A DNA stretch of 64,000 nucleotides from a bacterium (GCA_044868695.1 JBIOWP010000107.1:1-64000); one strand, 5' to 3'; positions 45,621 to 60,028 are shown, counted from the first letter of the stretch. Numbers and translations are program-made. The notes: generated from the letters alone by a model not told the origin.

Positions 45621-45705
45621 GTCCCGTCGTGTACCGCAGGCAGGAATTGCGTTGCTCGGCGCGAATCGCGCGAGAACCCAGCGAAGCTCGTGGAGGCGAC
45701 AGACC

Positions 45706-47064
45706 ATGGAGAGCGTGAAGTACCTGCTTGACGAATCGCAGATTCCCAAATCCTGGTACAACATCTGCTCGGATCTGCCCGTGCCGCTTCCGCCGGTGCT
45801 GCATCCGGGCACCAAGCAGCCGGTGGGCCCGGACGATCTCGCGCCGCTGTTCCCGATGGACCTGATCCTGCAGGAGGTCAGCACTGAGCGCGAGATCCCC
45901 ATCCCCGAGCCGGTGCGCGAGGTGTACAAGTTGTGGCGGCCCACGCCGCTGCATCGCGCACGGCGGCTCGAACGGGCGCTCGACACCCCGGCGCACATCT
46001 ACTACAAGTACGAAGGCACCAGCCCGGCCGGTAGTCATAAGCCGAACACCGCGGTCGCGCAGGCGTTCTACAACAAACAGGCGGGCGTGCGGCGGCTGAG
46101 CACGGAGACCGGAGCCGGACAGTGGGGCAGCGCGCTGGCGCTGGCCTGCCGGATGTTCGGGCTCGAGTGCACCGTGTACATGGTCAAGGTGAGCTACGAC
46201 CAGAAGCCGTACCGCAAGACCATGATGCAGACCTGGGGCGCTGAAGTCATCCCCAGCCCGAGTTCCCGTACCAACGCCGGCCGCGCCATCGCGGCCAAAG
46301 ACCCGCGCTCGCCGGGCAGCCTGGGCATCGCCATCAGCGAGGCCGTCGAGGACGCCGCGACGCACGATGACACGAAGTACTCTCTGGGCAGTGTCCTCAA
46401 CCACGTCCTCCTACACCAGACCGTCATCGGGGTGGAAGCCCGCAAGCAGATGGAGATGGCCGGCGAGTATCCCGATGTTGTCATCGGGTGCATCGGGGGC
46501 GGGAGCAACATGTCGGGGCTCACGTTCCCGTTCCTGGCCGACAAGTTCAAGGGCAAGAAAGTGCGGATCGTGGCGGTGGAGCCCGAGGCGTGCCCGTCGC
46601 TGACCCGCGGCCGGTACCTCTATGACTTTGGGGACACTGCGGCAACCACGCCACTCATCAAGATGTACACGCTCGGCCACAGTTTTGTGCCGCCGGCGAT
46701 CCACGCGGGTGGGCTGCGCTACCACGGCGATGCGCCCCTCGCCTGCCTGCTGTATCATCACAAGTACATCGAGGCCGCCGCCTACTCGCAGCGGTCCGTC
46801 TTTGAAGCCGCGGTGCAGTTCGCGCAGACCGAGGGGATCATTCCGGCGCCGGAATCCGCGCACGCGATCCGCAAGGCCGTCGATGAGGCGCTCCAGTGCA
46901 AGCGCGACGGCACGGCCCGGGTGATCCTGTTCAATCTCAGCGGACACGGGCACTTTGACCTGAAGGCCTACGAGGATTTCCTGGCCGGCAGGCTGGAGGA
47001 CTTCGTCTACCCGCAGCAGCAGGTGGAGCAGGCGATGAAGGAACTGGCGGCGATTCAGCCCTAG
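45706..47064 (+). CDS. trpB2: TrpB2 (tryptophan synthase beta type 2), stand-alone
   Basis: [53 protein letters not shown]. Confidence 0.92.
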
Positions 47065-48350: not shown

Positions 48351-48407
48351 AAAGAAGGAGGGGACTGTCCCCTCCTTGCAATAGCCCATATTGGTCATTG
48401 ATGGGTG
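48351..48407. repeat. 57-bp dispersed repeat, copy 2
   Basis: 48/57 identical to 34699-34755. Confidence 0.8.
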
Positions 48408-48424
48408 ATTTGTTTGGGTCATCT

Positions 48425-49251
48425 GTGACGACTGAAGAGATCATGTCGCTCGCGCTGGAGATGTCCGGGTTTCTCCGGATTCCGGAGGATTCCGCCATTT
48501 TCGTCCCAGGCAAGGGCATCCAGAAGGTGCTCTTCGGTGTGGACGTCGGGGCGGCGGAGCTGCAGATGGCGAAAGCGCTGGGTGTCGACCTGGTGATCGC
48601 CCACCACCCGCCCGCCACGGGCACCGACACCTGGAAGATCTTCCTGCGGCACGTCGAGTTTATGACCGCTGCCGGGGTGCCCGAGGACGCGGCGCTGGCG
48701 GCCGTGGCGGAGAAAATCGAAGGGCTGAAGCTTCGCGGGCAGGTCGCCAACTACGACCACGTGCCCTCGGCCGCGAAATTGATTGGCATCCCGTTCATGA
48801 ACATCCACGCGCCGCTCGATGAACTGGGCCGGCGGCGCCTGCGCGAGCAGGTGGACGGCGTGCTGGCCCGGGGCCGGGCCACGGCCGGAGATCTGGTGGA
48901 CGCGCTCGCCGCGCTTCCCGAGATGCGCGCCGCGCCGACCACCGTCCAGGCGGTCCTCGGCGACGCGGCCGACCCCGTGCGCCGCGTCGTCGTGGGCCAC
49001 GGCGCCTATACGAACGGCGGCTATCCGGTCGCCCGGGCGTGCTTCGCGCACGGGGTAGACGCCGTCGTGTACATACACATCGACTTCGCGGAACTCCAGC
49101 ACCTCCGGGCCGAGCGCCGCGGTAACCTCATCGTTGCGGCCATCTGGCCGGCGATTCGCTGGGTTTTACCCCCTTTCTTCGCGAGCTCCGGAAGCGCGGA
49201 CTGGACGTGATGACCTTCAGCGGCGTGATTGAACCAGTCCCCAGTCCCTAG
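48425..49251 (+). pseudogene. NIF3/DUF34-like metal-binding protein with a 1-nt frameshift near 49138
   Basis: GVDV, IAHHP, MNIHAPLD; after GNLIVA the -1 frame continues GHLAGDSLGFTPFLRELRKRGLDV..* (stop 49249-49251). Confidence 0.65.
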
Positions 49252-49292
49252 TCCCAAGTCCCTGCCTGATGGTCCCGTCACTAGGCACTAGT
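49234..49292. repeat. heptamer array (CNAGTCC)x4 with degenerate inverted partner (CACTAG x2)
   Basis: CCAGTCC CCAGTCC CTAGTCC CAAGTCC ... GTCACTAG GCACTAG. Confidence 0.6.
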
Positions 49293-49318
49293 TGCCCGTC
49301 ACTGCTAGAATCGTTGTA

Positions 49319-50031: not shown

Positions 50032-51177
50032 ATGAGCCGCCGGCGGTTCGAGACCCGCGCGATCCATGAGGGGCAGCCGCCGGATCCCGCGACCGGCGCG
50101 GTCATGACGCCGATCTATCAGACCGCGACATACGCGCAGTCCGAGCCCGCGGTCCACAAGGGATACGACTACAGCCGCACCGCGAATCCGACCCGCACCG
50201 CGCTGGAAACATGCCTGGCGTCGCTGGAAGAGGGGGCGCACGGGCTCGCGTTTGCCTCGGGGATGGCGGCGATCACCACAGCGTCATATCTGCTCAACCC
50301 CGGCGACCGGGTGCTGGCCCCGGACGACGTGTACGGCGGAACCTACCGGTTGTTCGTCCGCGTCCTCCAGCGCTACGGCATCGCGCCGTCGTTCGTGGAC
50401 ATGACCGACCTGACGCGGGTCGAGGCGGCGCTGGGCACCCACCCGCGCCTGGTGCTGGTCGAGACGCCGACCAACCCGTACCTCAAGATCCTCGACATTG
50501 CGCGCATCGCCGAGCTCGCGCATACCCACGACGCGCTCGTGCTCGTGGACAATACGTTTGCGTCTCCCTATTTCCAGCGGCCGCTGACCCTGAGTGCGGA
50601 TATCGTCGTCCACTCGACAACCAAGTACCTGGGCGGGCACAGCGACGTGATCGGCGGCGCCGCGGTGACCAACAGCAGGGAGATCGCTGAAACGCTGCGG
50701 TTCCACCAGAATGCCGCCGGCGCGGTGCCGGGACCGTTCGACTCCTGGCTCGTCCTGCGCGGGATCAAGACGCTGGCGGTGCGGATGGAACGCCACGCCG
50801 CCAACGCGATGCAGGTGGCGCAGTTCCTAAACGGCCATCCCGCCGTGGCCCGGACGTTCTACCCCGGTCTCCCCGGCCACCCCGGCTACGACCTCGCCCG
50901 GCGGCAGATGACGGGATTCGGCGGGATGGTGTCGTTCGTTCTGAAGGGGGGAGGCCGCGCGGCCAGGGCCGTGGCTTCCTCGACGCGGGTCTTCCTCCTG
51001 GCGGAGAGCCTGGGCGGCGTGGAATCGCTTCTCGACCATCCGGCCAGCATGACGCACGCCTCGCTCGCCGGCTCCCCGATGCAGGTTGACGAAGGGCTGA
51101 TCCGCCTCTCGGTGGGGATTGAGCACATCGACGACCTCATTGACGATTTGAAGCAGGCGCTCGACAACGCGAGATGA
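50032..51177 (+). CDS. cystathionine gamma-lyase/synthase (Cys/Met metabolism PLP enzyme)
   Basis: YDYSRTANPTR, FASGMAAI, ETPTNP, HSTTKYLGGHSD, AESLGGVESL. Confidence 0.92.
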   Translation: MSRRRFETRAIHEGQPPDPATGAVMTPIYQTATYAQSEPAVHKGYDYSRTANPTRTALETCLASLEEGAHGLAFASGMAAITTASYLLNPGDRVLAPDDVYGGTYRLFVRVLQRYGIAPSFVDMTDLTRVEAALGTHPRLVLVETPTNPYLKILDIARIAELAHTHDALVLVDNTFASPYFQRPLTLSADIVVHSTTKYLGGHSDVIGGAAVTNSREIAETLRFHQNAAGAVPGPFDSWLVLRGIKTLAVRMERHAANAMQVAQFLNGHPAVARTFYPGLPGHPGYDLARRQMTGFGGMVSFVLKGGGRAARAVASSTRVFLLAESLGGVESLLDHPASMTHASLAGSPMQVDEGLIRLSVGIEHIDDLIDDLKQALDNAR

Positions 51178-51449
51178 CGACCGTCTACGTCCCAACTCCG
51201 CTCCGCCGCACGACGGGCGGCCAGGGCAAGGTCCAGCTTGCCGGCCGCACCGTGCGGGAGTTGCTTGACGCGCTGGAGCGCCGCCATCCCGGCATCCGGC
51301 AGCAGGTGTTCGATGAGCGCGGCGAGGTACGCAGCTTCATCAATGTCTTCGTCAACGGCACCGAGATCCGGCAACTGCAGGGGCTGGCGACGCCCGTGAA
51401 AGAGACGGACGAGGTGTCGATCATCCCCGCGATGGCGGGCGGGTTGTGA
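51174..51449 (+). CDS. cysO: CysO/MoaD-like ubiquitin-fold sulfur carrier, ending ...AGG-L
   Basis: VPTPLR..TGG, TVRELL, FINVFVNG..IR, IIPAMAGGL*; context with cysM and mec. Confidence 0.8.
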   Translation: MTTVYVPTPLRRTTGGQGKVQLAGRTVRELLDALERRHPGIRQQVFDERGEVRSFINVFVNGTEIRQLQGLATPVKETDEVSIIPAMAGGL

Positions 51450-52882
51450 AGCGCACGGCGGGCAAGGTCAGGCCACGGCCCCGCCGCGCGGCGCCAACCG
51501 CCGCCAGGGACGAAATCTTCGACAGTGTCCTCGATGTGGTCGGCAAGACCTCGCTCGTGCGCCTGCACAAGGTCACCCGCGGCCTGCGCGCCGATGTCGT
51601 GGCGAAGCTCGAGTACCTCAATCCCGGCGGTTCGGTCAAAGACCGGATCGGCCCGACGATCCTCGATGATGCGGAGCAGCGCGGGCTACTGCGGCCCGGC
51701 GGAACGATCGTGGAAGCCACCTCCGGGAATACCGGCGTCGGCCTGGCCATCGCCGCGGCGGTCCGCGGGTACCGGACCATCTTCGTCATGCCGGACAAGA
51801 TGTCGGAGGAGAAGATCCGGCTGCTGCGCGCGTTCGGCGCCCGCGTCGTCATTACGCCGACCGCGGTGGCGCCCGACGATCCACGAAGCTACTACAGCGT
51901 GAGCCGGCGCATCGCCGAGGAGACCCCGAACAGCTTCTACGCCAACCAGTACGCCAATCCGGCGAACCCGCAGGCGCACTATCGCACGACCGGTCCGGAG
52001 ATCTGGCGCCAGACCGGCGGCCGGCTCGACCTCTTCATTGCCACGATGGGGACCGGCGGGACAATTTCCGGCGCCGGCAAGTTTCTCAAGGAGCGGCGCT
52101 CGGCGCTGCGCGTCATCGGGGTCGATCCGCTGGGGTCGGTCTTTTACGAATACTTCAAGACCGGAAAGCTCCCCGAGCCGCGGACATATAAGGTGGAGGG
52201 GATCGGTGAAGACTTTCTCCCCGAGACGATGGATTTCTCCGTCGTGGACGAGGTCGTGCAGATCTCCGACCGCGAGGCGTTCATGATGACGCGGCGGCTG
52301 GTGCGCGAAGAAGGACTGTTCTGCGGCGGCAGCAGCGGCGCGGCGGTGGCGGGCGCGATCAAGTATCTGCGCACTCTGCCCGACGGCGGCGCGGGCCTGC
52401 GGGCGGTCGTGGTGCTCCCCGATTCCGGATCGCGCTACCTCTCCAAGATCTTCTCCGACGACTGGATGCGGGAGCATGGATTCTTGGAGATCGAACTAGG
52501 CACCGTCGGGGAGCTGGTGCAGACCAAGTCCATCCCGCTGGTGTCGGCCAGCCGCACCGATGCGGTCAGCGACGTCGTCGCCAAGATGAAGCAGTACGAC
52601 GTGTCGCAGCTGCCGGTGCTGGAAGACGAGCGCCTGGTCGGTATGATCAGCGAAGTGGACCTGCTCACGCACCTGCTGGATGGCTCTCACCGCCCCTCGG
52701 ATCCAATCCAGCCCATCATTGATCCCGCGCCCCCGGTGGTGGCCCCCGACAGCCCGATCGACGTCCTGGCCGACGTCTTCCTCTCCGCCAACGCGGCGGT
52801 CGTTGTGGATCACGGCGCGGTGGTGGGGATCGTCACCAAGATCGACGTCATCGACCACCTGGCCAAACGCCTGGGCCGCTGA
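51446..52882 (+). CDS. cystathionine beta-synthase with C-terminal CBS pair
   Basis: NPGGSVKDRIG, ATSGNTG, GTGGT, YKVEGIGEDF, DSGSRYLSKIFSDDWM, CBS domains. Confidence 0.9.
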   Translation: MKRTAGKVRPRPRRAAPTAARDEIFDSVLDVVGKTSLVRLHKVTRGLRADVVAKLEYLNPGGSVKDRIGPTILDDAEQRGLLRPGGTIVEATSGNTGVGLAIAAAVRGYRTIFVMPDKMSEEKIRLLRAFGARVVITPTAVAPDDPRSYYSVSRRIAEETPNSFYANQYANPANPQAHYRTTGPEIWRQTGGRLDLFIATMGTGGTISGAGKFLKERRSALRVIGVDPLGSVFYEYFKTGKLPEPRTYKVEGIGEDFLPETMDFSVVDEVVQISDREAFMMTRRLVREEGLFCGGSSGAAVAGAIKYLRTLPDGGAGLRAVVVLPDSGSRYLSKIFSDDWMREHGFLEIELGTVGELVQTKSIPLVSASRTDAVSDVVAKMKQYDVSQLPVLEDERLVGMISEVDLLTHLLDGSHRPSDPIQPIIDPAPPVVAPDSPIDVLADVFLSANAAVVVDHGAVVGIVTKIDVIDHLAKRLGR

Positions 52883-52887
52883 CCGGG

Positions 52888-53742
52888 ATGAGAGACAACA
52901 CGCGCGCCGGCGGGGCGCTGCGGCTTTCAACCGGGCAGTCGTTGCCCGATTTGCGGATCGTCCCCCGCGCCGAGGTCCATTTGCACGAGGAGACCGATCC
53001 GGCCCGCGTGCAGCGGCTGGTCGCGCGCATGCGAGCGGACGGCATCCTGCGCAATCCGCCGATTGCCGCGCCGCTGCCGGAAGGCGGGTACGTCGTTCTC
53101 GACGGAGCCAACCGCAGCACTGCCCTGATGGCGTTTGAGGCGCCGCTGCTGCTCGTCCAGGTTGTCGACTATCATGATCCCGCGGTCAGGCTCGATGTCT
53201 GGCATCACCTGCTGACCGAGCCGGTGGACCTCGGGGCCCTGCTGCGGTCCAAGGGACTGATCTTGAAGGACATGAGTGTGTCTGAAGCGGCGCAGGCACT
53301 GGCCCAGCGCGCGATCGCATGCTACCTGCTGGGTCCTGCCGGAGCCCGGTCAGTGGCCGCCGCACCGGCCCAGCCGTCCGCGGCGGTTCTCTCGGCGGTT
53401 GTGGACGCCTACAAGGCGACAACCCGCATTTACCGCGTGATGGACACAGACTTGGATACGCTCGCCCGCGCGTATGGGTCCGTCTCGGCGGTGGTGGTCT
53501 TCCCGACCTTCACCAAACGCGACATTCTTGAGATTGCGCGGTCGCCAGTCAAGCTGCCCGCCGGCATTACGCGGCATCTCATCCCCGGGCGCGCGCTGCG
53601 CGTGAATCTGCCGCTCGAGGTCCTGACCTCGCCGGGCGACGCCGAGCAAAAGAACCGCTGGCTGGTCGAGGAGATTCACCAGCGGCTGCTCGAGAACCGC
53701 GTCCGGTACTACCCGGAAGACTCCTTCCTGTTTGATGAGTGA
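52888..53742 (+). CDS. SbnI/SerK-like free L-serine kinase (ParB/Srx fold)
   Basis: VHLHEET..R, LRNPP, YVVLDGANR, WHH, LPAGITRHLIPGRALRVNLPL, RYYPEDSFLFDE parallel recalled S. aureus SbnI motifs along the whole length. Confidence 0.75.
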   Translation: MRDNTRAGGALRLSTGQSLPDLRIVPRAEVHLHEETDPARVQRLVARMRADGILRNPPIAAPLPEGGYVVLDGANRSTALMAFEAPLLLVQVVDYHDPAVRLDVWHHLLTEPVDLGALLRSKGLILKDMSVSEAAQALAQRAIACYLLGPAGARSVAAAPAQPSAAVLSAVVDAYKATTRIYRVMDTDLDTLARAYGSVSAVVVFPTFTKRDILEIARSPVKLPAGITRHLIPGRALRVNLPLEVLTSPGDAEQKNRWLVEEIHQRLLENRVRYYPEDSFLFDE

Positions 53743-54631
53743 GCTGCTCAACGCCATCGGCAATACGCCGCTGCTGCGCCTAACCCGCGTCACGCGGGAT
53801 CTGCCGCTGGCGGTTGAAGTGCACGTCAAAGCCGAGTGGTTCAACCCCGGGGGATCGGTGAAGGACCGTCCGGTGCGCCGGATCATCCTCGACGCGGAGC
53901 GCGACGGCCGCCTGTCGCGCGACCGGACCATCCTCGATTCGTCATCCGGAAACGCCGGCATCGCCTACGCCATGATCGGAGCGGCCCGGGGCTATCGCGT
54001 GCGTCTGGTCGTGCCAGGCAACGTCAGCGAGGAACGCAAGCACATCCTGCGCGCGTACGGCGCGGAGGTGGAATACTCCGATCCGCTAGAAGGGTCGGAC
54101 GGCGCGATCGTCGTCGCCCGCCGCCTGCACGAGGAGGGCCGCGGCCAGTTCTTCTACGGCGACCAGTACAGCAATCCCAGCAATCCCCGCGCGCACTACG
54201 AGACGACCGGTCCTGAGGTGTTCGCGCAAACCGAGTCGCGCATCACCCATTTTGTGGCCGCGCTGGGCACCAGCGGGACGATCGTCGGGGCCGGGCGCCG
54301 GCTGCGGGAACTGCAGCCGGGCGTGCAGATTGTGGCGGTCGAGCCGGACACGGCCCTGCACGGCATCGAGGGATTGAAGCACATGGCCAGCGCGATCGTT
54401 CCGGGAATCTATGACCGCTCCGTCCACCACCGCACGATTCCGATGAGCACGGAGGCCGCCTACGAGATGGCCAGGCGCCTGGCGCGCGAGGAGGGGCTCC
54501 TGGTCGGCCAGTCATCCGGCGCCGCGGTGGCGGGCGCTCTGCAGGTGGCCCGTGAGCTTGAGGAGGGTGTAATCGTCGCGGTCTGCCCTGACGGCGGCGA
54601 CCGCTACTTGTCGACCGCCCTCTGGAGATAA
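53735..54631 (+). CDS. cysM: CysM-type cysteine synthase (likely O-phosphoserine sulfhydrylase)
   Basis: IGNTPL, NPGGSVKDRP, SSGNAG, QYSNPSN..AHY.TTGPE, LGTSGT, DGGDRYLST; adjacent to mec. Confidence 0.8.
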   Translation: MSELLNAIGNTPLLRLTRVTRDLPLAVEVHVKAEWFNPGGSVKDRPVRRIILDAERDGRLSRDRTILDSSSGNAGIAYAMIGAARGYRVRLVVPGNVSEERKHILRAYGAEVEYSDPLEGSDGAIVVARRLHEEGRGQFFYGDQYSNPSNPRAHYETTGPEVFAQTESRITHFVAALGTSGTIVGAGRRLRELQPGVQIVAVEPDTALHGIEGLKHMASAIVPGIYDRSVHHRTIPMSTEAAYEMARRLAREEGLLVGQSSGAAVAGALQVARELEEGVIVAVCPDGGDRYLSTALWR

Positions 54632-54667
54632 AATCGAGCGTTTTCTGTCGTATAATGGGGGACAACG

Positions 54668-55066
54668 GTGCTGGAACTGAGTCGGGACCAGGCTGCGGCG
54701 CTTGTTGCGCACGCCAACGAGGAGTTTCCCAACGAGTGCTGCGGTCTGCTGGCCGGGCGCAACGGCCGGGTGGAGCGGGTCTACCGGGGCACTAACGTCG
54801 ATTACAGCCCCTATACGTACCTGATGGATCCCAAAGAGCAACTGGCCGCGTTCAAGGACATGGAAGCGGCCGGGCTGGACCTGGTAGGGATCTATCACTC
54901 GCACACCCACACGGCTGCGTACCCGTCCAAGACCGACGTGGCGAAGGCGTTCTACCCAGATGTACTCTACATGATCGTATCGCTGGCGAGGCGGGAGACT
55001 CCAGAGATCCGGGCATTCCGGTTCTTGGACGCAGAGATCGTCGAAGAGGACGTGATCATTCGATGA
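54668..55066 (+). CDS. mec: JAB/MPN+ (Mov34) metallopeptidase, Mec-like
   Basis: PNECCGLL, IYHSHTHTAAYPSKTD (JAMM HSH-x7-S-x2-D); TATAAT at 54651-54656. Confidence 0.85.
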   Translation: MLELSRDQAAALVAHANEEFPNECCGLLAGRNGRVERVYRGTNVDYSPYTYLMDPKEQLAAFKDMEAAGLDLVGIYHSHTHTAAYPSKTDVAKAFYPDVLYMIVSLARRETPEIRAFRFLDAEIVEEDVIIR

Positions 55067-55488
55067 AAGTGTCCACCCGCGCGGAGTACGGACTGCGGGC
55101 GTTGATCGACCTCGCCAGCCACTACGGCGAAGGTCCGGTGCAGACGCATCAGATTGCGGCCCGCCAGGGGCTGCCGGAACCCTACCTCAATCAGCTGATG
55201 AGTTCCCTCCGGCGCGCAGGCCTGGTGGCCAGCAAGCGCGGACCCGCGGGCGGGCACGTGCTGGCGCGCGCCCCCGAGGCCATCACCCTCCGCGAGGCCT
55301 TCGACGTCCTGGAGGGGTCGACGGCGCCGTGGTGGTGCGTCGAGTCCGATGATCCCGACTGCGTGTATGCCCACGGCTGCGGGCTGCGGCCGGTGTGGCA
55401 GGCGATCAACCAGGCGGTGGAGCGCGTCCTGGGCGAGATGTCGCTCGCGGATATCTCACGCGTGAGGCAGCCTGCCGGACGCACCTGA
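55063..55488 (+). CDS. Rrf2 family regulator (IscR-like, 3 Cys)
   Basis: STRAEYGLRALIDLA, YLNQLM..LRRAGLV.SKRGPAGG, C-x7-C-x5-C. Confidence 0.9.
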   Translation: MKVSTRAEYGLRALIDLASHYGEGPVQTHQIAARQGLPEPYLNQLMSSLRRAGLVASKRGPAGGHVLARAPEAITLREAFDVLEGSTAPWWCVESDDPDCVYAHGCGLRPVWQAINQAVERVLGEMSLADISRVRQPAGRT

Positions 55489-55509
55489 CCTCGGCAGGCT
55501 GCACAGGGG

Positions 55510-55544
55510 CAGGCCAGGGGGCGCCCCTGGCCTGTGTTGTTTTT
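55510..55544 (+). terminator. Rho-independent terminator
   Basis: CAGGCCAGGGG/GCG/CCCCTGGCCTG then TGTTGTTTTT. Confidence 0.7.
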
Positions 55545-55560
55545 GGGCGGGTGGTTCAGG

Positions 55561-58834: not shown

Positions 58835-60028
58835 ATGACTCTGACAGCCCGCCCGGGCCCGCTTCTGGCCAAGGATCAGATCGAGCGGTACTCCCGCCAG
58901 ACGATCCTTGAAGAGATCGGCGTCGCGGGGCAGCGCAAACTCTTGGACAGCAGGGTGCTGATCGTCGGCGCCGGAGGACTGGGCAGCCCGTCGGCCATCT
59001 ACCTCGCCGCGGCCGGGATCGGCACGCTGGGTATCGTGGACGGCGACCGCGTCGATCTCTCCAACCTCCACCGCCAGGTGATGCACTTCACGCACGACAT
59101 CGGCAGGCCGAAGACCCAGTCCGCGCGGCGGACGCTGGAGGACATCAATCCCGACGTCACCGTCGTCCCGCACCAGACGGTCCTGACCAGCGAGAACGCG
59201 ATGGACATCATTTCAGACTATGACCTCGTCATCAACGGCAGCGACAACTTCCCGACGCGCTATCTGGTCAACGACGCGACCGTCATGTTGCGCAAGCCGC
59301 TCGTCGACGCCAGCATTCTGAAGTGGGAGGGGCAGGCCACCGTCTTCCTGCCGGGCCACGGCTGCTACCGCTGCCTGTTTCCCACGCCGCCGCCTCCGGG
59401 GACGGTGCCCAGCTGCGCCGAGGGCGGAATCGTCGGCGCGCTCGCGGGCTTCATGGGAACGCTGCAGGCGGTGGAGGCCATCAAGATCCTCGTCGGCAAG
59501 GGTGAGACGCTGGCCAACCGCCTGTTCATCTACGACGCGCTGATCGGCGAGATCCGCACGCTGCGCTGGAACCGGAATCCGGATTGCCCGGTGTGCGGCG
59601 ACCACCCGACGGTCACCCAGCTCATCGATTACGAGGCCTTCTGCGGCGTGCCCGGTCGCGAGCCGTCGCATGCGCCCGCGGTCGCCGTGGCGCGCACGCC
59701 GGAGGTGTCCGTGGCCGAGGCGAAGGCGATGCTGGACCGCGGCGAGGCCCAACTGGTTGATGTGCGGGAAGTCTGGGAGTGGGTGACCGCCCGCATTCCC
59801 GGCGCCGCGCTGATTCCGATGGGCGAGCTGGCCCAGCGCATCTCGGAAATCCCCAAGGATCGCACCGTGATCATTCACTGCGCCACCGGGCAGCGCAGCG
59901 CTACTGTGACGGATGCGCTGCGCGACGCCGGATATGCCCAGACGTTCAACCTGGCCGGTGGGATCGTGGCGTGGATGAACGAACAACTACCGGTGGAAGC
60001 GGGGCCGCCCGAGAAACACCAACCGTGA
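58835..60028 (+). CDS. moeZ: MoeB/ThiF adenylyltransferase fused to rhodanese (MoeZ/MoeR)
   Basis: RYSRQ, VGAGGLG, SNLHRQ, GSDNF, CYRC, SCAEGG, CPVC; rhodanese HCATGQRS. Confidence 0.9.
   Translation: MTLTARPGPLLAKDQIERYSRQTILEEIGVAGQRKLLDSRVLIVGAGGLGSPSAIYLAAAGIGTLGIVDGDRVDLSNLHRQVMHFTHDIGRPKTQSARRTLEDINPDVTVVPHQTVLTSENAMDIISDYDLVINGSDNFPTRYLVNDATVMLRKPLVDASILKWEGQATVFLPGHGCYRCLFPTPPPPGTVPSCAEGGIVGALAGFMGTLQAVEAIKILVGKGETLANRLFIYDALIGEIRTLRWNRNPDCPVCGDHPTVTQLIDYEAFCGVPGREPSHAPAVAVARTPEVSVAEAKAMLDRGEAQLVDVREVWEWVTARIPGAALIPMGELAQRISEIPKDRTVIIHCATGQRSATVTDALRDAGYAQTFNLAGGIVAWMNEQLPVEAGPPEKHQP

What the first reader, a model, noticed from the sequence alone, without database searches (positions are those of the whole stretch)
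51174..55066. Cysteine pathway coupling an SbnI/SerK-like free-serine kinase to the CysO-CysM-Mec sulfur-carrier route
Seen: ORF 52888-53742 overlaps the cysM start and lies between cysO/CBS and cysM-mec; moeZ is about 4 kb downstream of mec. Its motifs ([29 protein letters not shown]) track S. aureus SbnI as I recall it. Known: SbnI (ATP) and Thermococcus SerK (ADP) make O-phosphoserine from free serine; M. tuberculosis CysM condenses O-phosphoserine with CysO-thiocarboxylate made by MoeZ, and Mec releases cysteine. Inference: a self-contained Ser -> O-phosphoserine -> CysO-Cys -> Cys route that needs neither SerA/SerC nor CysE. I know no description of this combination; automatic annotation would probably call the kinase ParB-like or hypothetical. 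CysM has a basic residue (GLKHM) near the recalled phosphate-binding Arg of mycobacterial CysM (ALRNM).
Basis: partly seen in the sequence, partly recalled or inferred. Interest (0 to 1): 0.8.

Follow-up and report, generated by a model that had tools for sequence, protein, structure and literature searches.

The report
Serine kinase feeding carrier-based cysteine synthesis
An unannotated gene related to the two known free-serine kinases sits directly in front of a cysteine synthase across almost a whole bacterial phylum that nearly always lacks the usual serine-acetylating enzyme, so these bacteria likely make cysteine by phosphorylating serine and adding sulfur from a small carrier protein, a wiring of known parts that nobody has yet tested.

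Summary
Observation confirmed. ORF 52888-53742 is a full-length SbnI/SerK-family protein (profile E 1e-39 to SbnI; model TM 0.68-0.71) with the catalytic Glu and Asp kept. It scores far below both family cut-offs, so it is a separate subfamily. It is found in 88 of 94 genomes of the phylum (probably CSP1-3) and lies directly upstream of cysM in 78 of 80 cysM-bearing genomes. cysE is found in 1 of 94. The same CysM lineage sits with cysO and moeZ in 18 of 20 Chloroflexota loci. Best reading (0.72): Ser -> O-phosphoserine -> CysO-Cys -> Cys.

Corrections: this genome has serA; moeZ lies outside the operon; CysO is a masked precursor that needs trimming; the GLKHM lysine is not diagnostic. The kinase may also feed TrpB2, CBS or serine assimilation: one genus keeps it without cysM, and Chloroflexota put it beside CBS. 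No activity was measured.

The logic is known in T. kodakarensis (SerK plus CysK) and the carrier route in mycobacteria. I found the combination in no paper (10 searches). The scan noted the same system earlier on other genomes. New variant of a known kind; interest 0.55.

The parts
52888..53742 (+). SbnI/SerK-family protein, predicted free L-serine kinase (284 aa; H33-E34, D72-G73-A74-N75-R76, W105, T228-R229-H230)
53735..54631 (+). CysM-type PLP cysteine synthase (short loop, KDRP, Y145, K215); start overlaps the kinase stop; only CysK/CysM-like gene of the genome besides CBS
51174..51449 (+). CysO-like sulfur carrier, 91 aa, ending Gly-Gly-Leu (one residue masks the Gly-Gly)
   Evidence: (best PDB hits 4n6e_B and 3dwg_C)
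54668..55066 (+). Mec-like JAMM protease; predicted to trim CysO and to release cysteine from CysO-Cys
   Evidence: JAMM motif in 60 of 60 orthologues
51446..52882 (+). Cystathionine beta-synthase with CBS domains; accessory (orthologue in 38 of 94 genomes)
   Evidence: (TIGR01137 508 bits, cut-off 510)
50032..51177 (+). Cystathionine gamma-lyase/synthase (MetB/CGL); accessory, travels with CBS
   Evidence: NF005871 569 bits, over cut-off; 21 of 60 loci
55063..55488 (+). Rrf2-family regulator with three Cys, last gene of the operon
   Evidence: 59 of 60 loci
55509..55545 (+). Intrinsic-terminator-like hairpin (12 pairs) after rrf2
   Evidence: consensus match only (6 found in the region, 5.0 expected in shuffles)
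58835..60028 (+). MoeZ/MoeB-rhodanese fusion (rhodanese Cys349); sole ThiF-family gene of the genome; outside the operon
45652..47064 (+). TrpB2, a second possible user of O-phosphoserine, 5.8 kb upstream of the kinase
   Evidence: (657 bits, over cut-off)

Best explanation
The ORF between CBS and cysM is an SbnI/SerK-fold protein with its catalytic residues intact that likely phosphorylates free serine, and the neighbouring CysM likely condenses that O-phosphoserine with thiocarboxylated CysO, after which Mec would release cysteine. Steps: (1) Mec is predicted to trim the residue(s) after CysO's Gly-Gly (masked end shown, cleavage inferred). (2) MoeZ would adenylate and sulfurate CysO from a reduced sulfur donor (by analogy; donor unknown). 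(3) The kinase would make O-phosphoserine from serine (fold and residues shown, activity inferred; ATP or ADP unknown). (4) CysM would form aminoacrylate from O-phosphoserine and accept CysO-COSH (inferred). (5) Mec would hydrolyse CysO-Cys. This replaces the CysE/O-acetylserine route. Where long-type serA is missing, the kinase is the only evident O-phosphoserine source; where serA is present, as here, it is a second source. The same pool probably also serves TrpB2.
For: Kinase: whole-chain SbnI/SerK match by sequence, profile and fold. E34 aligns with SerK E30, the residue mutated in PDB entries 5x0e/g/j/k. HE and LDGANR are present in 60 of 60 phylum orthologues; H, E, D, G, R are invariant in 79 distant homologues. 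Distant homologues are fused to a CysO-like ThiS domain (P0125), a Mec-like JAB domain (P0156) or SerA-like dehydrogenases.

Linkage: kinase in 88 of 94 genomes, 53 of 54 good ones. In 60 fetched loci: cysM next in 57, mec in 60, cysO in 55, CBS in 22. Kinase directly upstream in 78 of 80 cysM genomes, the other two broken at contig ends (my comparison).

Need: cysE in 1 of 94; long serA in 47 of 94. G009 (91% complete) and G060 (96%) keep kinase, cysM and cysO, with no long serA, cysE, CBS orthologue or TrpB2 found.

CysM: Tyr145 in 57 of 57, the residue said to mark O-phosphoserine users (PMC12800425, passage), against Phe in E. coli and Deinococcus CysM and CysK. The same lineage lies with cysO and moeZ in 18 of 20 Chloroflexota loci, with mec in 15, and with mec and moaD on an Aliarcobacter plasmid. 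cysM is lost in 8 of 8 genomes of genus g19, and no CysO-type carrier was found in the 3 tested. 32 of 36 outside kinase genomes carry this CysM elsewhere. CysM-CysO model: score 0.66, best control 0.20; mark reached by 116 of 157 solved and 2 of 215 mismatched pairs; runs agree in at least 73% of contacts, partner pLDDT at least 87; a like complex is solved (3DWG), so this shows likeness only.
Against: No activity measured. The protein reaches neither family cut-off (72 of 350 and 44 of 380 bits). It has Asn where SbnI and SerK have His in the G-x-H-R motif, so nucleotide or substrate could differ; one SerK-like protein bound CTP (PMC12704722, passage). Genus g19 keeps the kinase without cysM. 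In 80 outside loci (mostly Chloroflexota) the kinase never lies within the fetched flanks (up to 6 kb, many shorter) of cysM or cysO, but follows CBS in 22; 11 of 36 such genomes have cysE. CysM scores better against Salmonella CysM (246 bits) than M. tuberculosis CysM (183) and is outside the actinobacterial clade. K215 and Y145 are each shared with enzymes that use other substrates (E. coli CysM Arg210; CBS Tyr). Genus g16 keeps cysM with no cysO in the operon. Mec and MoeZ also serve other carriers. Short-type SerA is not excluded in 'serA-less' genomes. Related genomes are not independent observations.
Confidence: 0.72

Rival explanations
1. It is a serine kinase, but its main job is a general O-phosphoserine supply for other enzymes: an O-phosphoserine-using CBS (with homocysteine, then CGL to cysteine) and TrpB2. 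CysM is one customer or none.
For: CBS directly precedes the kinase here and in 22 of 80 outside loci. Two g19 genomes have a second, broken kinase copy behind CGL-CBS. TrpB2 uses O-phosphoserine (PMC11917138, passage citing Busch 2014). It is found in 53 of 94 genomes, in 6 of 8 of the cysM-less genus g19, and within 15 kb upstream of the kinase in 24 of 53 (my count).
Against: A CBS orthologue is found in only 38 of 94 genomes (my count) and TrpB2 in 1 of 23 of family f4, yet the kinase stays glued to cysM there. No sequence sign of O-phosphoserine use in the CBS was found. One paper search for such a CBS returned nothing.
Confidence: 0.12
2. The protein serves serine metabolism: it replaces SerB (O-phosphoserine to serine) or starts serine assimilation through SerC/SerA, as proposed for SerBK/DUF1015 and for T. 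kodakarensis SerK. In this operon it would supply serine to CBS.
For: At least 5 full-length and 7 partial homologues among 19 long ones scanned are fused to SerA-like dehydrogenases. No serB over cut-off in this genome. serA follows a class V aminotransferase in 20 of 20 loci. SerBK, a remote structural relative of SbnI, complements serB (PMC13759103, passages).
Against: The kinase is kept in genomes where long serA was not found (47 of 94). In 7 of 7 such genomes inspected, the aminotransferase has no serA beside it. The reverse kinase reaction is unfavourable (PMC13759103, passage). No serA lies beside the kinase in the 80 outside loci.
Confidence: 0.08
3. The kinase supplies O-phosphoserine, but CysM uses free sulfide or thiosulfate rather than CysO, like T. 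kodakarensis CysK or CysK2. CysO, Mec and MoeZ serve other sulfur transfers.
For: CysM is no closer to actinobacterial CysM than to enterobacterial CysM. K215 matches the thiosulfate-binding Arg210 (PMC9547175, passage). g16 lacks an operon cysO.
Against: cysM-mec-cysO-moeZ operons in Chloroflexota; CysM-Mec fusions in 7 loci; joint absence of cysM and cysO in g19; no sulfite reductase found in this genome; g16 keeps another CysO-type carrier; complex model passes by likeness.
Confidence: 0.05
4. The protein is not a serine kinase but a regulator (as SbnI also is, binding DNA and heme) or acts on another substrate such as homoserine or threonine.
For: SbnI has a regulatory role (PMC7139808, passage). 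His-to-Asn change in the nucleotide motif. About 20-26% identity to characterised enzymes.
Against: Catalytic Glu and Asp are invariant; the Trp and Thr-Arg-His positions align with SerK; fusions point to serine chemistry; the operon already has an Rrf2 regulator.
Confidence: 0.03

Closest known systems
SbnI (Staphylococcus; PDB 5UJE, 5UJD, 6NR6; NCBIfam NF033589)
   Same: Closest sequence and profile match; same two-domain fold; same catalytic Glu/Asp positions; makes O-phosphoserine for a PLP enzyme.
   Different: About 20-22% identity; far below the cut-off; Asn for His in the nucleotide motif; SbnI serves siderophore synthesis and is a heme-sensing regulator; here the setting is primary cysteine synthesis.
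T. kodakarensis SerK (TK0378) plus CysK (TK1687) (PMC5120207)
   Same: Same logic: Ser -> O-phosphoserine -> Cys without serine acetyltransferase; same fold (TMq 0.71); Thr-Arg-His motif shared.
   Different: Archaeal, ADP-dependent, not in an operon; the paper found no clear bacterial homologues and, in the passages seen, describes no sulfur-carrier protein. Here the gene is bacterial, coupled to cysM and embedded with cysO and mec.
Mycobacterial mec-cysO-cysM with MoeZR (PMC3227635; PDB 3DWG)
   Same: Same four components; CysO is a top PDB hit; CysM shares KDRP, QY and the basic residue with actinobacterial orthologues.
   Different: CysM belongs to another lineage (with Chloroflexota and Aliarcobacter); O-phosphoserine there is described as the serine-biosynthesis intermediate, with no kinase; M. 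tuberculosis CysO ends at Gly-Gly, whereas 50 of 54 here carry an extension; PMC9547175 calls the route actinobacteria-only.
SerBK / DUF1015 (PMC13759103)
   Same: Remote SbnI-like protein tied to phosphoserine metabolism; proposed serine kinase.
   Different: Different family (no Pfam hit of any kind here), linked to serA-serC rather than cysM.

Membership tests
SbnI/SerK free-serine kinase superfamily | Whole-chain two-domain SbnI/SerK fold, not just a ParB/Srx N-domain | tested here: met
   TMq 0.68-0.71 against 0.25 or less for ParB/Srx
SbnI/SerK free-serine kinase superfamily | Catalytic Glu (SerK E30, SbnI E20) and metal-binding Asp (SbnI D58) | tested here: met
   E34 and D72 by alignment, invariant. 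The E30 role is supported by PDB mutant titles; the roles of SbnI E20/D58 are recalled, the paper is not held
SbnI/SerK free-serine kinase superfamily | Phosphorylates free L-serine | not testable with these tools
   needs an assay
SbnI (NF033589 equivalog) | Score over the curated cut-off (350 bits) | tested here: not met
   71.9 bits; best E 1.4e-30 among 79 relatives
SbnI (NF033589 equivalog) | Located in a staphyloferrin B / IucA-IucC cluster | tested here: not met
   cysteine operon here; a Bacillus plasmid homologue shows the siderophore setting
SbnI (NF033589 equivalog) | Heme and DNA binding; ATP as donor | not testable with these tools
   needs assays
SerK (NF053625 equivalog) | Score over the curated cut-off (380 bits) | tested here: not met
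   43.8 bits
SerK (NF053625 equivalog) | ADP dependence | not testable with these tools
   needs an assay
CysO-CysM-Mec-MoeZ pathway | All four genes present with intact motifs | tested here: met
   (moeZ in 85 of 94)
CysO-CysM-Mec-MoeZ pathway | Carrier with a free C-terminal Gly-Gly | tested here: inconclusive
   Gly-Gly followed by Leu; needs trimming, which is inferred
CysO-CysM-Mec-MoeZ pathway | CysM belongs to the actinobacterial clade | tested here: not met
   tree of 21 sequences: separate 100/99 clade, three-way split unresolved
CysO-CysM-Mec-MoeZ pathway | O-phosphoserine-type active-site residues | tested here: inconclusive
   Y145 and K215 are present but not exclusive; alignment used Tsukamurella and Nonomuraea orthologues, not the M. 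tuberculosis sequence
CysO-CysM-Mec-MoeZ pathway | CysM binds CysO | tested here: inconclusive
   model passes (0.66, best control 0.20; 116 of 157 solved, 2 of 215 mismatched), but a like complex is solved
CysO-CysM-Mec-MoeZ pathway | Uses O-phosphoserine and CysO-COSH as substrates | not testable with these tools
   needs an assay
Canonical ParB | HTH and dimerisation domains; ParB family hit | tested here: not met
   no Pfam or NCBIfam ParB hit for this protein; fold match limited to about 80 residues

The most novel reading that the evidence does not exclude
A widespread, unannotated bacterial serine-kinase subfamily (at least 580 species genomes, CSP1-3 and Chloroflexota above all) makes O-phosphoserine the general activated serine of these phyla in place of O-acetylserine. 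It would feed carrier-dependent CysM, TrpB2 and an O-phosphoserine-using cystathionine beta-synthase (for which I found no paper). In some lineages the carrier is made as a ubiquitin-like head on CBS or on the kinase itself and cut free by Mec.
Probability: 0.3. Interest if true: 0.75.

Novelty: new variant of a known kind. Interest (0 to 1): 0.55.

Why it matters
If true, it fills the cysteine-synthesis gap of a whole soil and hot-spring phylum that lacks cysE, and probably of many Chloroflexota. It gives a function to a large family now labelled 'ParB-like' or 'hypothetical'. It would put a bacterial free-serine kinase in primary metabolism, whereas SbnI serves siderophore synthesis. It would extend the CysO route well beyond actinobacteria, through a different CysM lineage. 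All steps can be tested with five small soluble proteins. The surprise is moderate, because each part and the serine-kinase logic are known separately.

Tried and rejected
Canonical ParB or sulfiredoxin: rejected. Chance adjacency: rejected. 'No SerA in this genome': rejected; serA is present at a contig end, and the gene upstream of it is not on that contig. No close orthologue of the serA-linked aminotransferase was found in this genome. GLKHM as proof of O-phosphoserine use: rejected. Mec as proof of the CysO route: weak, since a MoaD-MoaE fusion and a second carrier also need it. A word-index search for longer fused forms found none, although the HMMER search did. The 79-sequence alignment was too diverged for the locus scan; a 20-sequence one was used, whose single pattern and ranking by an Anaerolineae sequence bias the 80 loci toward Chloroflexota. 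No RNA holder was listed. Promoter scan: one sigma-70-like site at 49282-49311 upstream of lipB, consensus only. Papers not held: the SbnI kinase paper, O'Leary 2008 and one further id. A kinase-CysM complex was not modelled. The second structure job was not used.


Full report
Anatomy. The + strand carries lipB, a CGL/MetB-like lyase (50032-51177), cysO (51174-51449), CBS (51446-52882), the ORF in question (52888-53742), cysM (53735-54631), mec (54668-55066) and rrf2 (55063-55488). Genes overlap or lie within 40 bases from CGL to rrf2. A terminator-like hairpin follows rrf2 (consensus only). moeZ (58835-60028) is 3.8 kb further on, behind a minus-strand gene, and is the genome's only ThiF-family gene. 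The genome is 95% complete. Homologue names and the rank structure (one order, 7 families) fit phylum CSP1-3 as described in PMC11962464 (passages); this is my inference.

The kinase-like protein. NCBIfam gives only SbnI (72 bits, cut-off 350) and SerK (44 bits, cut-off 380); Pfam gives nothing. The 7 PDB hits with E below 1e-5 (of 8 listed) are SbnI, SerK and the P. furiosus SerK homologue. A 79-sequence profile matches SbnI nearly end to end at E 1.1e-39 and SerK at 1.3e-16. All 79 members hit the SbnI model and 78 the SerK model, with best E 1.4e-30. The AF2 model (pLDDT 91) matches SbnI (TMq 0.68) and SerK (0.71, rmsd 2.5), but ParB and Srx only over about 80 residues. E34 aligns with SerK E30, which the PDB titles show was mutated to trap substrates; D72 aligns with SbnI D58 (role recalled). 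The motif reads GANR rather than G-x-H-R, in 60 of 60 phylum orthologues. It is thus a third subfamily: it works like SbnI/SerK by every structural test but is a member of neither curated family.

Linkage in the phylum. The gene is found in 88 of 94 genomes and 53 of 54 good ones. I fetched about 6 kb on each side for 60 of the 87 other carriers, chosen across families for contig length. cysM follows directly in 57, mec is present in 60, rrf2 in 59, cysO in 55, CBS in 22, CGL in 21 and moeZ within range in 6. A cysM orthologue is found in 80 of 94 genomes; comparing coordinates by hand, the kinase is directly upstream in 78 and the other two break at contig ends. The core is cysO-kinase-cysM-mec-rrf2, with CGL and CBS optional. 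These genomes are kin and not independent.

Is the kinase needed? cysE passes its cut-off in 1 of 94 genomes, while controls rang. Long serA is found in 47 of 94 and 35 of 54 good genomes (only 13 candidates were scored per genome there; five genomes were rescored in full with none over the cut-off). In relatives serA follows a class V aminotransferase in 20 of 20 loci. That aminotransferase persists in 62 of 94, without serA beside it in 7 of 7 serA-less genomes inspected. Short dehydrogenases remain, so a short SerA is not excluded. G009 (91%) and G060 (96%) keep kinase, cysM and cysO with no long serA, cysE, CBS orthologue or TrpB2 found; G060 has further cysteine-synthase-like genes. Serine can come from GlyA. 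No SerB and no sulfite reductase were found here, so the sulfur donor must be already reduced; it is unknown even for mycobacterial MoeZR (PMC3227635, passages).

CysM. By score it is nearer Salmonella CysM than M. tuberculosis CysM. In a 21-sequence tree it forms its own clade with an Aliarcobacter plasmid enzyme, in an unresolved split with actinobacterial and enterobacterial CysM. It shares KDRP, Tyr145 and a basic residue at 215 with actinobacterial CysM. Tyr is said to mark O-phosphoserine users (PMC12800425, passage) but CBS has it too, and K215 also matches E. coli Arg210, linked to thiosulfate (PMC9547175, passage). Context is stronger. In 20 Chloroflexota loci (20 of the 32 found), this CysM lies with cysO and moeZ in 18 and mec in 15; the one cysE seen sits behind a separate CysK; a second cysE near such a cysM (G097) was not inspected. 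The Aliarcobacter gene has mec and moaD nearby. Genus g19 lacks cysM in 8 of 8 genomes, and no CysO-type carrier was found in the 3 tested (13 of their 14 ThiS loci fetched). A CysM-CysO model scored 0.66 against a best control of 0.20 (mark reached by 116 of 157 solved and 2 of 215 mismatched pairs; runs agree in at least 73% of contacts; partner pLDDT at least 87). Because 3DWG is a like complex, this shows likeness only.

CysO is masked. The window's carrier ends Gly-Gly-Leu. Of 54 orthologues with the motif (a 55th is broken), 4 end at Gly-Gly, 16 have 1-3 extra residues, 27 have 4-30, and 7 run in frame into CBS; 7 loci fuse CysM to Mec. Distant kinases are fused to ThiS, JAB or SerA-like domains (19 long homologues scanned). 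Mec therefore probably both matures the carrier and frees cysteine (inference; JAMM maturation of other carriers is recalled, and one search returned no paper on it for this route).

Against a single-purpose reading. g19 keeps the kinase without cysM, without long serA and mostly without CBS. Earlier scan notes suggested TrpB2 as a user. TrpB2 is present in 6 of 8 g19 genomes and 53 of 94 overall and uses O-phosphoserine (PMC11917138, passage); a lone CysK-like gene is another candidate. Outside the phylum, the best 80 loci (mostly Anaerolineae; many short) show CBS directly upstream in 22, mec in 1, cysM and cysO in none. Yet 32 of 36 such genomes tested have the same CysM elsewhere, and 11 of 36 have cysE. 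The kinase is best seen as an O-phosphoserine supply whose most constant partner is this CysM.

Literature. Ten searches found no paper joining a serine kinase to the CysO route. Seen as passages: PMC5120207 (SerK plus CysK; no clear bacterial homologues), PMC13759103 (SerBK; no CysO mention in the text or its six supplements), PMC12704722, PMC3227635, PMC9547175, PMC12800425, PMC12910592, PMC11962464, PMC11917138, PMC7139808, PMC11354881. The primary SbnI and CysM enzymology papers were not held, and most subscription journals are not searched. Supplements of PMC12704722 and PMC11962464 were not read and could list this family. The scan's own earlier notes describe the same system on other genomes; they are not independent evidence.

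Verdict. Shown: genes, fold, residues, linkage, near-absence of cysE, masked carrier. Inferred: every catalytic step. New variant of a known kind; confidence 0.72; interest 0.55.

Noticed in passing
L054, L055, L057, L060, L065, L066, L084; P0125: CysO runs in frame into CBS in 7 loci and into the kinase in P0125: ubiquitin-like precursor fusions that would need cleavage after Gly-Gly. Six of these loci also fuse CysM to Mec.
   Followed up: partly
P0182, P0250, P0256, P0257, P0268 and partial P0225, P0236, P0249, P0251, P0253, P0255, P0267; P0156: Kinase homologues fused behind SerA-like 2-hydroxyacid dehydrogenase domains, and one behind a Mec-like JAB domain.
   Followed up: partly
G000:C31:7885-9431 (L015:221-1767): A threonine-synthase-like gene followed by a second CysO-type carrier ending Gly-Gly-Arg. 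It may be a MetM/MetO-type homocysteine route (names from PMC13759103; homology not tested).
   Followed up: partly
window 45652-47064; G000:C90:4486-5460: The genome has both a stand-alone TrpB2 and, by inspection, a canonical TrpB. TrpB2 is often 5-15 kb upstream of the kinase.
   Followed up: partly
L206:8433-8885 and 25 other loci: A conserved small ORF with no Pfam hit directly follows the kinase in 26 of 80 mostly Chloroflexota loci.
   Followed up: no
G028:C141 (L231), G029:C293 (L232): Two g19 genomes carry a second, broken kinase copy behind CGL-CBS besides an intact copy before mec.
   Followed up: partly
family f4 genomes: Most f4 moeZ matches contain one stop, suggesting the E1 and rhodanese parts are separate genes there.
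   Followed up: no
G000:C76:1875-2687: MoaD-MoaE fusion (by inspection) that would also need JAMM cleavage; it may explain why mec is kept without cysM.
   Followed up: no
window 48398-49210: Nif3-like gene (weak TIGR00486 hit) upstream of lipB; its last residues look as if they may be out of frame.
   Followed up: no
window 55063-55488: The Rrf2 regulator has three Cys and is closest to CymR among the equivalog models (below cut-off); an Fe-S-sensing regulator of the operon is possible. A TATAAT lies at 54650-54655, just before mec.
   Followed up: no
L223 (NZ_CP082364.1): Bacillus plasmids carry SbnI-like genes annotated as ParB; the one fetched ends an IucA/IucC siderophore cluster.
   Followed up: partly
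G011:C121:4415-4897: The only cysE of the phylum lies at the end of a short contig; transfer or binning error is possible.
   Followed up: no
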